Below, one piece after another: positions 19,856 to 21,127 of a DNA stretch of 34,149 nucleotides; positions within the stretch are counted from its first letter, which is position 1, and each line of letters starts with the position of its first letter. The stretch spans positions 1 to 34,149 of the forward strand of contig JBKPQU010000434.1 in NCBI GenBank assembly GCA_046734255.1, in the 5' to 3' direction. The translations under genes were made by a program, and so were the position numbers. The notes under the pieces were generated by a model that saw only the letters and a program-made list of their open reading frames with translations, was not told the origin of the DNA and made no database searches. Origin of the DNA: Actinomycetota bacterium (GTDB lineage: Bacteria; Actinomycetota; Actinomycetes; Actinomycetales; Kineosporiaceae).

Positions 19856-21127
19856 TCATCCGTCGGCAGCGGCCGGCGAGCCCCCCTCGATCCCCACGTC
19901 GGTGTCCACCACGAACGCGGACCTGAGCAGCGGGACCGCCTGGGCGAGCAGCCGGACACGACCCTGCACGAGCGGCGCCGCGGCGTCCAGGGCGGCGAGC
20001 TGGCGCGGAGTCGGATCCGCGGGCAGCAGGCCGGCGGATCGCAGGTACGAGTGCAGCCGGTCACGGAACTCCTCCGCCGACAGCCTGCGGAGGTGCTCGG
20101 CATTGACCGCCTCCGCCTCCGCCGGGTCGAATCCGACCGGGTGGGCGAGGAGGCCGCGCAGGTCGAAGGTCTCCGCCAGCTCGGAGATCGTGAAGATCTC
20201 GCGGCCGTCCGACGGCGCCCAGCCTCGGAGCGCGAGGTAGTTCAGCAGGCCCTCGGGGAGGAACCCGCACTCGCGGTGGTGCAGCACGTCGGCTTCCGGG
20301 TCCCGGCCGGACAGCGCGCGGTTGCCCGCCCCCCGCAGCAGCGGCAGGTGACCGAACTGCGGCATCTCGGCCGCCACGCCGAGGTCGACCAGCGCCCGCC
20401 AGACCGGGATCTGCCGCAGCGTCGTCGGGAGCAGGTCCTCACCGCGCAGCACGTGGGTGATCCCCATCAGTGCGTCGTCCACCGGGTTGGCCAGCGCGAA
20501 CAGCGGGACGCCGTCCTGCCCGGCGACGACGAAGTCAGGCACGCTGCCGGCCCGCAGCGTCATCCGCCCACGCACGAGGTCGCAGAAGGCGATGTCTTCC
20601 TCCGGCATCCGGAACCGCAGCACCGGCAGCCGGCCCTCGCCGCGCAGATCGGCAGGGCGCTGACCGCTCTGCGGCCGGTCGGCGTTGTCGTAGCCCAGCG
20701 ACGGATCCCGCCCGGCCGCCAGGTGCCGGGCCCGTACCTCGTCGGCGGTGGAGAAGGACTCGTAGACGTGGCCCGCCGCGGCGAGCCGTTCGAGCACCTC
20801 CCGGTGTATCGGTCGGCGCTGGCTCTGCCGGTACGGGGGGTGCGGGCCGCCGACCTCCATTCCCTCGTCCCAGTCCAGGCCCAGCCAGCCCAGCGCCTCC
20901 AGCAGCTGCCGGTAGCCGGCCTCACCCGCCTCGCCGCCGTCGGCGTCCTCGAGCCGGAAGACCAGGACTCCCCCCGTGTGCCGGGCATAGGCCCAGTTGA
21001 ACAGGGCCGTCCTGATCAGCCCGATGTGCGGCCGCCCGGACGGCGATGGGCAAAACCGGACCCGGACCCCTTCGGACCGGGCAGTGGGCGGTCCGAGCGG
21101 CCGTCGATGCAGCACGAGCTCGGCCAT
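19856..21127 (-). CDS. glutamyl-tRNA synthetase homolog with degenerate catalytic signature motifs and a truncated C-terminus
   Basis: Start ATG 21127 ([53 protein letters not shown]...). Strong GluRS core ([42 protein letters not shown]). The KMSKS position reads RALSGR, EDTD..R reads [10 protein letters not shown], and the product is only 423 aa. See findings. Confidence 0.85.
   Translation of the reverse strand: [423 protein letters not shown]

What the first reader, a model, noticed from the sequence alone, without database searches (positions are those of the whole stretch)
19856..21127. The syntenic gltX copy has lost the KMSKS lysines and the EDTD..R block and lacks the distal anticodon-binding region, yet is an intact ORF
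The product is clearly GluRS-like. It has a HIGH-type motif ([13 protein letters not shown]), [26 protein letters not shown] and [16 protein letters not shown]. It occupies the classical position directly upstream of tRNA-Gln(CUG) and tRNA-Glu(CUC). Several signature positions are changed: (i) where bacterial GluRS carries its KMSKS-type loop (K-L-S-K-R), this protein reads RALSGR; (ii) the conserved R-I-E-D-T-D-x-x-R-S segment reads [12 protein letters not shown]; (iii) the FD-x-KK-L segment reads FDPAEAEAV. In addition, the ORF ends at 423 aa, whereas typical actinobacterial GluRS is about 490 aa by my memory. The alignment break falls roughly 65-80 residues before a normal C-terminus. Only 71 nt separate the stop from tRNA-Gln, so the missing part is not hidden in another frame. 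There are no internal stops or frameshifts, which argues against simple decay. Possibilities are a catalytically impaired or regulatory pseudo-synthetase, or a paralog with altered substrate or tRNA specificity. An established precedent for the latter is GluQRS/YadB, a GluRS paralog lacking the anticodon domain. A tRNA-dependent non-ribosomal function is another option.
Basis: partly seen in the sequence, partly recalled or inferred. Interest (0 to 1): 0.65.

Follow-up and report, generated by a model that had tools for sequence, protein, structure and literature searches.

The report
Crippled ancestral GluRS kept beside replacement
In a soil actinobacterium the original gene for the enzyme that loads glutamate onto tRNA has lost its catalytic lysines and the far part of its anticodon-reading region, apparently because a second, complete enzyme took over, yet selection still preserves the crippled protein, so it probably has a non-catalytic job.

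Summary
The 423-aa ORF (19856-21127, minus strand) is the positional orthologue of actinobacterial gltX. Compared with M. tuberculosis GluRS, both KMSKS lysines are gone (KLSKR becomes ALSGR). EDTDAQRDSEES reads [12 protein letters not shown]. About 86 codons encoding the distal anticodon-binding domain were removed by an in-frame internal deletion that keeps the native stop codon and the 71-nt spacer to tRNA-Gln.

The same metagenome-assembled genome (MAG) carries a second, complete 557-aa GluRS with every motif intact. That type is the only GluRS in three sister genera, where the old gltX has been deleted from this very locus, and in complete Amycolatopsis and Kutzneria genomes.

The short form is not a one-off. 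A sister species (83% aa identity) has the same substitutions, deletion and length. dN/dS is 0.15-0.39 (0.19-0.25 in the catalytic core, about 5.7 in the tail after the deletion). Strain SNPs are 13 synonymous to 10 non-synonymous.

Best reading: a displaced housekeeping GluRS retained as a non-catalytic or barely catalytic protein that still binds glutamate and possibly tRNA. It is not GluQRS and not a plain pseudogene. Its actual function is unknown.

The parts
19856..21127 (-). gltX-derived ORF, 423 aa plus TGA stop. It is the positional orthologue of actinobacterial GluRS.
   Evidence: Synteny with L069, which has the canonical 509-aa gltX, and with L047, the sister short form.
21017..21031 (-). 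Retained HIGH-type motif PHIGL (residues 33-37).
   Evidence: The His and Gly are invariant in every homologue; canonical genes read PHVGL.
20915..20950 (-). Degenerate EDTD..R loop, reading [12 protein letters not shown] (residues 60-71). Thr43 becomes Ala and Arg47 becomes Glu in T. thermophilus numbering.
   Evidence: pLDDT dips to 74 here.
20429..20506 (-). Glutamate-pocket segment [26 protein letters not shown]. Tyr187 becomes Phe, but the Asn191, Asp195 and Arg205 equivalents are kept.
   Evidence: Residue roles come from PMC2978374. Local dN/dS is 0.19.
20303..20320 (-). Former KMSKS loop, now RALSGR (residues 270-275). Both lysines are lost (K243 to Ala, K246 to Gly).
   Evidence: The sister species P0004 reads the same. 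The codons are unchanged in independent soil contigs.
20105..20131 (-). FDPAEAEAV, at the start of the proximal anticodon-binding domain. The conserved Lys is replaced by Glu.
19859..19921 (-). C-terminal tail (residues 403-423) spanning the in-frame deletion scar. It is unconstrained and predicted disordered.
   Evidence: 38% aa identity to the sister and dN/dS about 5.7. pLDDT is below 50 for residues 414-423. Deletion mapped.
19785..19855 (-). Conserved 71-nt spacer between the native gltX stop and tRNA-Gln. It contains a TTGGGC-N18-TACCAT promoter-like element, identified by eye.
   Evidence: Nearly identical in the window, L047 and L069; sequence. The consensus scan did not call it.
19712..19784 (-). 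tRNA-Gln (anticodon CTG).
   Evidence: The same pair follows gltX, or the empty site, in L047, L069, L061-L064.
19507..19582 (-). tRNA-Glu (anticodon CTC).
21128..21152 (-). Conserved leader with a TAnnnT box (TACGCT) 9 nt before the ATG. It is shared with the canonical orthologue.
   Evidence: Reading it as a -10 box is inference.

Best explanation
**What it is**
This is the ancestral housekeeping gltX of a soil actinobacterium. The names on the closest homologues suggest a Kineosporiaceae-like lineage. The gene became redundant because a complete GluRS of a different subtype (557 aa) is also present.

**Shown**
- In the common ancestor of at least two species the old enzyme lost both KMSKS lysines.
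- It lost the Thr and Arg of the EDTD..R loop.
- It lost the distal anticodon-binding domain through an in-frame deletion of about 86 codons.
- It evolved about ten times faster than its nearest canonical sister.
- Since then it has been under purifying selection. Constraint is strongest on the Rossmann core, which keeps HIGH and the Arg5/Asp195/Arg205-type glutamate network.

**Inferred**
- It can no longer make Glu-tRNA at a useful rate.
- It survives as a non-catalytic or barely catalytic protein that still binds glutamate and possibly the tRNA acceptor arm.
- Its real job is unknown.
- The newer GluRS charges both tRNA-Glu and tRNA-Gln, with GatCAB completing Gln-tRNA.
For: **Motif loss and deletion:**

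**Orthology**
- 17.8 kb of synteny with L069, which carries the canonical 509-aa gene with the same stop codon and spacer.
- In the protein tree the short clade is sister to P0005 with support 0.99.

**Acceleration**
- 0.57-0.61 substitutions per site against 0.061 for P0005 since their common node.

**A second GluRS is present and complete**
- It aligns end to end with T. thermophilus GluRS 1J09 and has HIGG, EDTDRSR and KLSKR.

**The second GluRS belongs to the same organism**
- Its contig C339 holds the MAG's only IleRS and HisRS and has typical composition.
- For both the HisRS and the GluRS on C339, the closest genome is G004.
- Four soil runs from four studies hold both genes at 2-6x depth.

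**That GluRS type suffices alone**
- It is the sole PF00749 gene, alongside gatB, in G055, G009 and G004, and the sole PF00749 gene in G051.
- It is the sole PF00749 gene in complete Amycolatopsis and Kutzneria genomes.
- In G055 and G009 the old gltX is gone from between the GGDEF/EAL gene and tRNA-Gln.

**Selection on the short form**
- The sister P0004 is 83% identical, has the same 423-aa length and the same substitutions, with no indel in 423 codons.
- pN/pS is 0.43 with Fisher p = 2e-8, and the observed aa identity exceeds all 5000 neutral simulations.
- dN/dS is 0.19-0.25 in the core and 5.7 in the tail.
- Strain SNPs are 13 synonymous to 10 non-synonymous, p = 0.004.

**Expression**
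- The leader and ATG are conserved.
- Two metatranscriptome contigs match at 99-100%.
Against: - No biochemical data exist. Loss of the KMSKS lysines predicts, but does not prove, loss of activity. Arg270 and Arg275 flank the loop and could partly compensate.
- No partner, operon or ligand points to a specific new function.
- dN/dS of 0.15-0.39 is similar to accessory neighbours (0.13-0.44 by NG86), so constraint is only moderate.
- In this 72% G+C gene, 38% of neutral simulations also keep the frame open.
- The MAG is 79% complete in 475 contigs, so linkage of the two GluRS genes rests on binning, co-occurrence and depth, not on one molecule.
- The sister species' second GluRS could not be found.
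- The metatranscriptome evidence is two small contigs and could be DNA carry-over.
Confidence: 0.55

Rival explanations
1. It is still a working but specialised or auxiliary GluRS. For example, it might be a low-activity enzyme dedicated to one of the two adjacent tRNAs, as GluRS2 is dedicated to tRNA-Gln in Helicobacter. It would use a non-canonical ALSGR loop and do without the distal anticodon-binding domain.
For: - HIGH and the glutamate-binding network are intact and are the most constrained part.
- A C-truncated E. coli GluRS stays specific for tRNA-Glu (Dubois 2009, cited in PMC3927822).
- The first KMSKS position is not Lys in GlnRS (VMSKR; from my own knowledge).
- Arg275 follows the Gly and could reach the active site.
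- The gene keeps its place upstream of tRNA-Gln and tRNA-Glu.
Against: - The second KMSKS lysine, the one needed for transition-state stabilisation in class I synthetases (established knowledge), is Gly in both species.
- Thr43 and Arg47 equivalents are also lost.
- The branch is about 10-fold accelerated.
- Relatives, and complete Amycolatopsis and Kutzneria genomes, manage both tRNAs with the 550-aa type alone plus GatCAB. No division of labour is therefore required.
Confidence: 0.2
2. It is a non-functional relic, a pseudogene in slow decay. Its open frame is an accident of high G+C, and the apparent constraint reflects too little time or selection against toxic misfolded products.
For: - Related genera with the 550-aa GluRS have deleted the gene completely, so it is dispensable in them.
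- 38% of neutral simulations keep the frame open.
- The C-terminal tail evolves neutrally.
- Overall dN/dS is no lower than that of accessory neighbours.
Against: - pN/pS is 0.43 with p = 2e-8, and aa identity is above all 5000 neutral simulations.
- Core dN/dS is 0.19-0.25.
- There are no indels in 1272 nt at 12.5% divergence.
- Within-species SNPs also show an excess of synonymous changes.
- The start codon and leader are conserved.
- Identical length is kept in two species.
Confidence: 0.12
3. Binning error. On this reading the 557-aa GluRS contig belongs to another organism. The 423-aa protein would then be the only GluRS of this bacterium and must be fully active despite its motif losses.
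For: - The MAG is fragmentary (475 contigs, 79% complete, 3.45% contamination).
- P0002 is more similar (73-79%) to proteins labelled Pseudonocardiaceae or Streptosporangiaceae than to its own family's copies (66-67%).
- Synteny around it is not shared with those family copies, apart from a divergent IleRS gene beside G009's copy.
Against: - C339 carries the only IleRS and HisRS of the MAG.
- Its HisRS is closest to family member G004 (70%), as is its GluRS.
- Its tetranucleotide profile is typical.
- All four soil runs tested hold both genes at matching low depth, and the lists of best-holding runs overlap.
Confidence: 0.05
4. It is a GluQRS-like tRNA-modifying enzyme that glutamylates queuosine in tRNA-Asp.
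For: It is a GluRS homologue with a reduced anticodon-binding region. GluQRS models give secondary hits.
Against: - Scores are far below the GluQRS cut-offs (152 against 276.7; 166 against 250).
- It nests inside canonical actinobacterial GluRS as a positional orthologue.
- It keeps about 100 residues beyond the point where GluQRS ends.
- It lacks the lysines needed to activate glutamate.
- Structural similarity to GluQRS is much lower than to GluRS.
Confidence: 0.02

Closest known systems
Canonical actinobacterial GluRS (gltX; M. tuberculosis Rv2992c, PDB 2JA2/3PNY; TIGR00464)
   Same: - It is the direct ancestor.
- Foldseek identity is 53-55%, and the nearest canonical homologues are 58-68% identical.
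- It occupies the same locus upstream of tRNA-Gln and tRNA-Glu.
- It has the same fold (TMq 0.87).
- HIGH and the glutamate-binding Arg/Asp/Arg network are kept.
   Different: - Both KMSKS lysines are lost.
- Thr and Arg of the EDTD..R loop are lost.
- About 86 residues of the distal anticodon-binding domain are deleted.
- It scores below the equivalog cut-off.
- Its branch is about 10-fold accelerated.
- It coexists with another GluRS.
LeuRS-I of Sulfolobaceae and LeuRS2 of Halobacteria, described in review PMC9437257
   Same: - They are extra synthetase copies that sit beside a working enzyme for the same amino acid.
- They are conserved.
- They bind tRNA but aminoacylate poorly or not at all.
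- Their function is unknown.
   Different: - They are duplicates or xenologues that keep their signature motifs.
- Here the crippled copy is the original orthologue, its KMSKS lysines are gone, and a domain has been excised.
- tRNA binding has not been shown here.
HisZ, the HisRS-derived regulatory subunit of ATP phosphoribosyltransferase
   Same: It is a synthetase-derived protein without aminoacylation activity that is kept by selection and keeps its amino-acid pocket.
   Different: HisZ has a known partner (HisG) and a known role. No partner or linked gene is visible here.
GluQRS / YadB
   Same: It is a GluRS relative with a reduced anticodon-binding region.
   Different: - GluQRS is an old, separate paralogue family that is catalytically active and lacks the whole anticodon-binding region.
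- This protein fails the GluQRS models, keeps domains 3-4, and lacks the catalytic lysines.
Engineered C-truncated E. coli GluRS (Dubois et al. 2009, Biochemistry 48:6012; cited in PMC3927822)
   Same: It is a GluRS without the distal domain. It shows that such a protein can still recognise tRNA-Glu.
   Different: It is a laboratory construct with intact catalytic motifs. A free distal domain stimulates it, and no free distal domain is encoded in this MAG.

Membership tests
Bacterial glutamate--tRNA ligase (GluRS, TIGR00464 / EC 6.1.1.17) | Class I E/Q catalytic domain (PF00749) | tested here: met
   199.7 bits, residues 21-330. The AF2 model is closest to M. tuberculosis GluRS, TMq 0.87.
Bacterial glutamate--tRNA ligase (GluRS, TIGR00464 / EC 6.1.1.17) | HIGH signature | tested here: met
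   PHIGL at residues 33-37; His34 and Gly36 are invariant.
Bacterial glutamate--tRNA ligase (GluRS, TIGR00464 / EC 6.1.1.17) | KMSKS signature with its lysines (K-[IL]-S-K) | tested here: not met
   It reads A-L-S-G. K271 and K274 are 100% conserved in 117 canonical homologues. Numbering to T. thermophilus K243/K246 comes.
Bacterial glutamate--tRNA ligase (GluRS, TIGR00464 / EC 6.1.1.17) | Complete anticodon-binding domain (PF19269) | tested here: not met
   No PF19269 hit. TIGR00464 matches only positions 2-364 of 470. There is an 86-codon in-frame deletion.
Bacterial glutamate--tRNA ligase (GluRS, TIGR00464 / EC 6.1.1.17) | Score above the curated equivalog cut-off | tested here: not met
   284.0 bits against 289.95. 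The intact 557-aa GluRS of a different subtype also scores below the cut-off (275.9), so this row alone is weak.
Bacterial glutamate--tRNA ligase (GluRS, TIGR00464 / EC 6.1.1.17) | Orthology by position and phylogeny to gltX | tested here: met
   Synteny with L069 and tree placement.
Bacterial glutamate--tRNA ligase (GluRS, TIGR00464 / EC 6.1.1.17) | Glu-tRNA(Glu) formation | not testable with these tools
   Needs ATP-PPi exchange and aminoacylation assays.
GluQRS / YadB (TIGR03838, NF004315) | Score above the family cut-off | tested here: not met
   152.4 against 276.7; 166.2 against 250.
GluQRS / YadB (TIGR03838, NF004315) | Catalytic domain only (about 300 aa), active KMSKS-type loop, separate paralogue clade | tested here: not met
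   It is 423 aa with a stem-contact fold and proximal anticodon-binding domain. The lysines are lost. It nests within canonical GluRS. TMq to 4A91/1NZJ is 0.54-0.56.
Synthetase-derived non-catalytic proteins (pseudo-synthetases such as HisZ, LeuRS-I) | Derived from an aaRS with catalytic residues lost | tested here: met
Synthetase-derived non-catalytic proteins (pseudo-synthetases such as HisZ, LeuRS-I) | Coexists with a functional synthetase for the same amino acid | tested here: met
   The 557-aa GluRS on C339 has all motifs. Same-organism support. Its activity is inferred, not measured.
Synthetase-derived non-catalytic proteins (pseudo-synthetases such as HisZ, LeuRS-I) | Kept by purifying selection after loss of catalysis | tested here: met
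   dN/dS 0.15-0.39, core 0.19-0.25, p = 2e-8; SNPs 13 synonymous to 10 non-synonymous.
Synthetase-derived non-catalytic proteins (pseudo-synthetases such as HisZ, LeuRS-I) | A demonstrated non-translational role or partner | not testable with these tools
   No linked operon. The neighbours (an S8 peptidase and a BrkB-family protein) are unrelated.
Pseudogene | Frame disruption, or dN/dS near 1 | tested here: not met
   There are no stops or indels in two species or in strain variants. dN/dS is significantly below 1. Only the 21-residue tail behaves neutrally.

The most novel reading that the evidence does not exclude
This would be a bacterial 'pseudo-GluRS': the original gltX orthologue, stripped of adenylation chemistry and of its distal anticodon-binding domain, has been recruited as a glutamate- and/or tRNA(Glu/Gln)-binding factor. 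It might, for example, hand tRNA-Gln to GatCAB, gate Glu-tRNA flow to GluTR and haem synthesis, or sense glutamate. It would also catch synthetase displacement in the act, since sister genera have already deleted the gene.
Probability: 0.3. Interest if true: 0.7.

Novelty: new variant of a known kind. Interest (0 to 1): 0.5.

Why it matters
Synthetase replacement by horizontal transfer is well known, but the intermediate stages are rarely seen. This family shows several stages together:
- genomes with both GluRS types intact (Kribbella, Microlunatus);
- this lineage, with the old enzyme crippled but conserved;
- sister genera with the old gene cleanly deleted from the same locus.

The case is a natural experiment on which parts of a class I synthetase stay useful once aminoacylation is no longer needed. 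Here the retained and most constrained part is the Rossmann core with HIGH and the glutamate pocket. It is also a candidate for a GluRS-derived non-catalytic protein. The 2022 review of synthetase paralogues (PMC9437257) lists only GluQRS for GluRS.

Practically, automatic annotation calls such genes 'glutamyl-tRNA synthetase' (the JGI name for P0004). That can hide which gene really is the essential enzyme.

Tried and rejected
- **Sister species' second GluRS.** A metagenome scan with P0002 returned no contig from the samples holding L047 or L048. Coexistence in the sister species is therefore untested.
- **Is the 557-aa GluRS part of a mobile aaRS island?** None of 80 metagenomic loci carrying this GluRS type has CysRS, HisRS or IleRS beside it. 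The family's own copies share no synteny with C339, apart from a divergent IleRS beside G009's copy. The question stays open.
- **Stem-branch dN/dS with L069 as outgroup.** NG86 gives 0.50 and ML gives 0.10 with dS saturated. This cannot distinguish relaxed from positive selection.
- **Free distal domain acting in trans.** None is encoded in the MAG.
- **Second GluRS-like hit in G038 (48% identity).** It is a frameshifted canonical gltX with KLSKR intact, not a parallel case.
- **ORF kept open only to express the downstream tRNAs.** Rejected. Each tRNA has its own conserved TACCAT-type box (by eye), and polarity would not produce dN/dS below 1.
- **Consensus promoter scan.** It found nothing.
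- **HipA-decoy idea** (the KMSKS-loop Ser is retained). Considered but not tested.
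Full report
**1. The observation**

- The minus-strand ORF is open from 21265 (469 aa). The start at 21127 gives 423 aa.
- Three things support the 21127 start: independent 423-aa gene calls (P0003 and P0004), alignment with canonical GluRS N-termini, and a 25-nt leader plus ATG conserved with the canonical orthologue on L069.
- tRNA-Gln(CTG) and tRNA-Glu(CTC) follow directly, with a 71-nt spacer.
- Pfam finds only the class I E/Q catalytic domain (199.7 bits) and no Anticodon_2.
- TIGR00464 matches profile positions 2-364 of 470 and scores 284 against a cut-off of 289.95.
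- Alignment with M. tuberculosis GluRS (2JA2/3PNY) shows three motif changes:

| M. tuberculosis GluRS | This protein |
|---|---|
| FRIEDTDAQRDSEESY | [16 protein letters not shown] |
| GEGTKKLSKRDPQ | [13 protein letters not shown] |
| FDQKKADALNAEH | [13 protein letters not shown] |

- Homology ends at residue 402, which corresponds to residue 384 of the M. tuberculosis enzyme (about 490 aa).
- Among 117 canonical homologues, 185 columns are at least 97% conserved. In the retained part, 32 of these are changed here or in the sister protein, about 27 identically in both. They include T62A, R66E/G, Y210F, K271A and K274G.
- T. thermophilus numbering (Thr43, Arg47, Tyr187, Lys243, Lys246) was checked on the printed 1J09 alignment.

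**2. The truncation is an in-frame internal deletion**

- Contig L069 carries the nearest canonical homologue, P0005 (509 aa, 68% identity, all motifs intact).
- L069 is collinear with window 10750-30471, running from the GGDEF/EAL gene through gltX, tRNA-Gln, tRNA-Glu, BrkB, DUF7144 and BTAD to MalT.
- The TGA stop and the spacer to tRNA-Gln are conserved in the window, L047 and L069.
- L069 positions 8093-8357 have no counterpart in the window.
- About 86 codons encoding the distal helical bundle (the PLRVA-TGR-SPPLFESMEILG region) were therefore excised in frame.
- The gene is the positional, vertical orthologue of gltX, not a paralogue.

**3. Not an artefact**

- Contigs from soil metagenomes of four separate studies cover the ALSGR and EDAD codons, and in two runs the stop and deletion junction. 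They show no indels and only scattered SNPs.
- A 99%-identical protein (P0003) comes from another sample.
- The sister form P0004 was assembled in three JGI samples.

**4. A second, complete GluRS**

- The MAG is 4.0 Mb in 475 contigs, 79% complete with 3.45% contamination. It has exactly two PF00749 genes.
- The second, on contig C339, encodes 557 aa with HIGG, VEDTDRSR, PTYHF, RGEEW and KLSKR. It aligns with T. thermophilus GluRS over residues 3-464.
- It lies in an unusual cluster: ileS on the minus strand, then cysS, this GluRS and hisS on the plus strand. On a near-identical contig from another sample (P0123) the cluster extends to a further 854-aa class I aaRS.
- Several lines place C339 in the same organism:
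  - It holds the MAG's only IleRS and HisRS.
  - Its GC and tetranucleotide profile are typical.
  - For both its HisRS (70%) and its GluRS (67%), the closest genome is G004, a family member.
  - The runs holding the window gene overlap with those holding this gene.
  - All four runs tested carry both genes at 2-6x depth.

**5. The second type suffices alone**

- In the family (49 genomes, 23 genera), genera g10 (7 species), g19 (6 species) and g5 (1 species) have only this type.
- G055, G051, G009, G004 and others have a single PF00749 gene. gatB was found in the four of them tested, although G018's copy is split across two frames.
- Complete Amycolatopsis and Kutzneria genomes also have only this type. 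Kribbella and Microlunatus have both types intact.
- By inference it is a non-discriminating housekeeping GluRS, so the old gene is not needed for tRNA-Gln.
- In G055 and G009 the tRNA-Gln/tRNA-Glu pair and the upstream GGDEF/EAL gene are still in place. The roughly 1.15 kb between the GGDEF/EAL gene and tRNA-Gln holds no trace of gltX.

**6. Selection on the short form**

- L047 is collinear with the window at 82-85% nucleotide identity. It encodes P0004, which is 423 aa, 83% identical, and reads [26 protein letters not shown] and PLFALANP with the same deletion.
- The 423 codons align without a gap.
- dN/dS is 0.39 by NG86 and 0.15 by ML. The neighbouring genes give 0.13-0.44 and 0.05-0.21.
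- pN/pS is 0.43 with Fisher p = 2.4e-8.
- Neutral simulations keep the frame open 38% of the time, so the open frame alone is weak evidence. They never reach the observed 82.5% aa identity (maximum 80.1%).
- dN/dS by region:

| Region | dN/dS |
|---|---|
| Rossmann halves and insertion domain | 0.19-0.25 |
| KMSKS / stem-contact region | 0.51 |
| Proximal anticodon-binding domain | 0.35 |
| 21-residue tail after the deletion | 5.7 |

- Strain-level SNPs from soil contigs are 13 synonymous to 10 non-synonymous (p = 0.004).
- In the protein tree the short clade is sister to P0005 with support 0.99. It has accumulated 0.57-0.61 substitutions per site since their common node, against 0.061 for P0005. 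Of this, 0.47 lies on the stem.
- The pattern is a burst of change after redundancy, followed by renewed constraint.

**7. What is kept and what is lost**

- Kept:
  - HIGH;
  - the equivalents of Arg5, Asp195 and Arg205, the network chiefly responsible for glutamate recognition (PMC2978374);
  - Ser9, Glu41, Asp44 and Asn191.
- Lost:
  - both KMSKS lysines, of which the second is needed for transition-state stabilisation in class I enzymes (established knowledge);
  - Thr43 and Arg47, which by my recollection of the T. thermophilus complexes contact the tRNA 3' end;
  - the distal domain, which by the same recollection reads anticodon positions 34-35.
- Tyr187 to Phe is not decisive. That Tyr is replaced in many archaeal GluRSs.
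- The AF2 model is confident (pLDDT 86.6) up to about residue 405, with dips at the two altered loops. The alignment used was mostly canonical GluRS, which biases the model towards that fold.
- Best structural matches are M. tuberculosis GluRS (TMq 0.87). GluQRS scores only 0.54-0.56.

**8. Expression hints**

- The leader and ATG are conserved.
- Two soil metatranscriptome contigs match the gene: 162 nt at 100% identity and 168 nt with 2 mismatches, the latter covering the EDAD codons.
- This evidence is weak.
- Both tRNAs appear to have their own TACCAT-type boxes (by eye). The ORF is therefore not needed to transcribe them.

**9. Interpretation**

- Shown: orthology, motif and domain loss, the presence and sufficiency in relatives of a replacement GluRS, acceleration, and present purifying selection focused on the catalytic core.
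- Inferred: loss of useful aminoacylation, and a retained binding function for glutamate and perhaps the acceptor arm.
- The actual role is unknown.
- Rivals are a weakly active specialised GluRS, a slowly decaying relic, a binning error, and GluQRS. They are listed with odds in the rival explanations.

**10. Comparison with known systems**

- The 2022 review of synthetase duplicates lists only YadB/GluQRS as a GluRS-derived protein. It describes LeuRS-I and LeuRS2 as tRNA-binding but poorly charging or non-charging copies of unknown function (PMC9437257). Those are the closest functional analogues.
- A C-truncated E. coli GluRS remains specific for tRNA-Glu (Dubois 2009, cited).
- Earlier notes of this scan report similar 'dead gltX orthologue plus about 550-aa second GluRS' cases in other phyla. 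They were treated as leads only.
- I file this as a new variant of the known kind 'synthetase-derived, catalytically disabled protein'. It is not a member of GluQRS and not a bona fide GluRS.

Noticed in passing
G000 contig C339 (locus L065) 1-5700; the P0123 contig: Unusual cluster of housekeeping synthetase genes. An 854-aa class I aaRS and IleRS lie on one strand; CysRS, the 557-aa GluRS and HisRS lie on the other, with overlapping or abutting ORFs. These are the only IleRS and HisRS in the MAG. None of 80 metagenomic loci with this GluRS type shows such neighbours.
   Followed up: partly
Family-wide: The family holds three GluRS types. One is the classical type (about 60% identity to the window protein). 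A second has about 40% identity (G015, G008, G001, G010; also G021 and G026 in other families). The third is the 550-aa type. This suggests repeated replacement of GluRS within one family.
   Followed up: partly
window 21315-23315 (+); 21688-22765: The S8 peptidase gene between the GGDEF/EAL gene and gltX is absent from the closest canonical relative, L069. In sister L047 the counterpart is only 307 aa, and window 21688-22765, which includes the Gly/Ser/Tyr repeat, has no match there.
   Followed up: partly
window 19681-19720 (-) and 19620-19660 (-): A perfect hairpin of about 16 bp follows tRNA-Gln (GCTGTGCTCGCCGCG / CGCGGCGAGCACAGC). A second TACCATCA box lies upstream of tRNA-Glu, matching the one upstream of tRNA-Gln. 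This suggests that each tRNA is its own transcription unit.
   Followed up: no
G038:C33:2215-3393 (L150); G007:C3:187895-189082 (L152): Classical gltX copies in two family genomes are broken across frames, with KLSKR still intact in G038. G038 also has an intact copy. G007 has no other GluRS hit, so its breaks may be sequencing errors or a true pseudogene.
   Followed up: partly
G018:C9:115388-116837: gatB in G018 is split into two adjacent frames (profile positions 4-182 and 182-480). This is either a frameshift or an assembly error.
   Followed up: no
loci L227, L229-L232: Distant relatives (43-44% identity) of the 550-aa GluRS type occur in gut Clostridia/Ruminococcaceae MAGs, some with longer matches of about 800 aa. 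This may connect to earlier scan notes on a 550-residue second GluRS in gut Bacilli.
   Followed up: no
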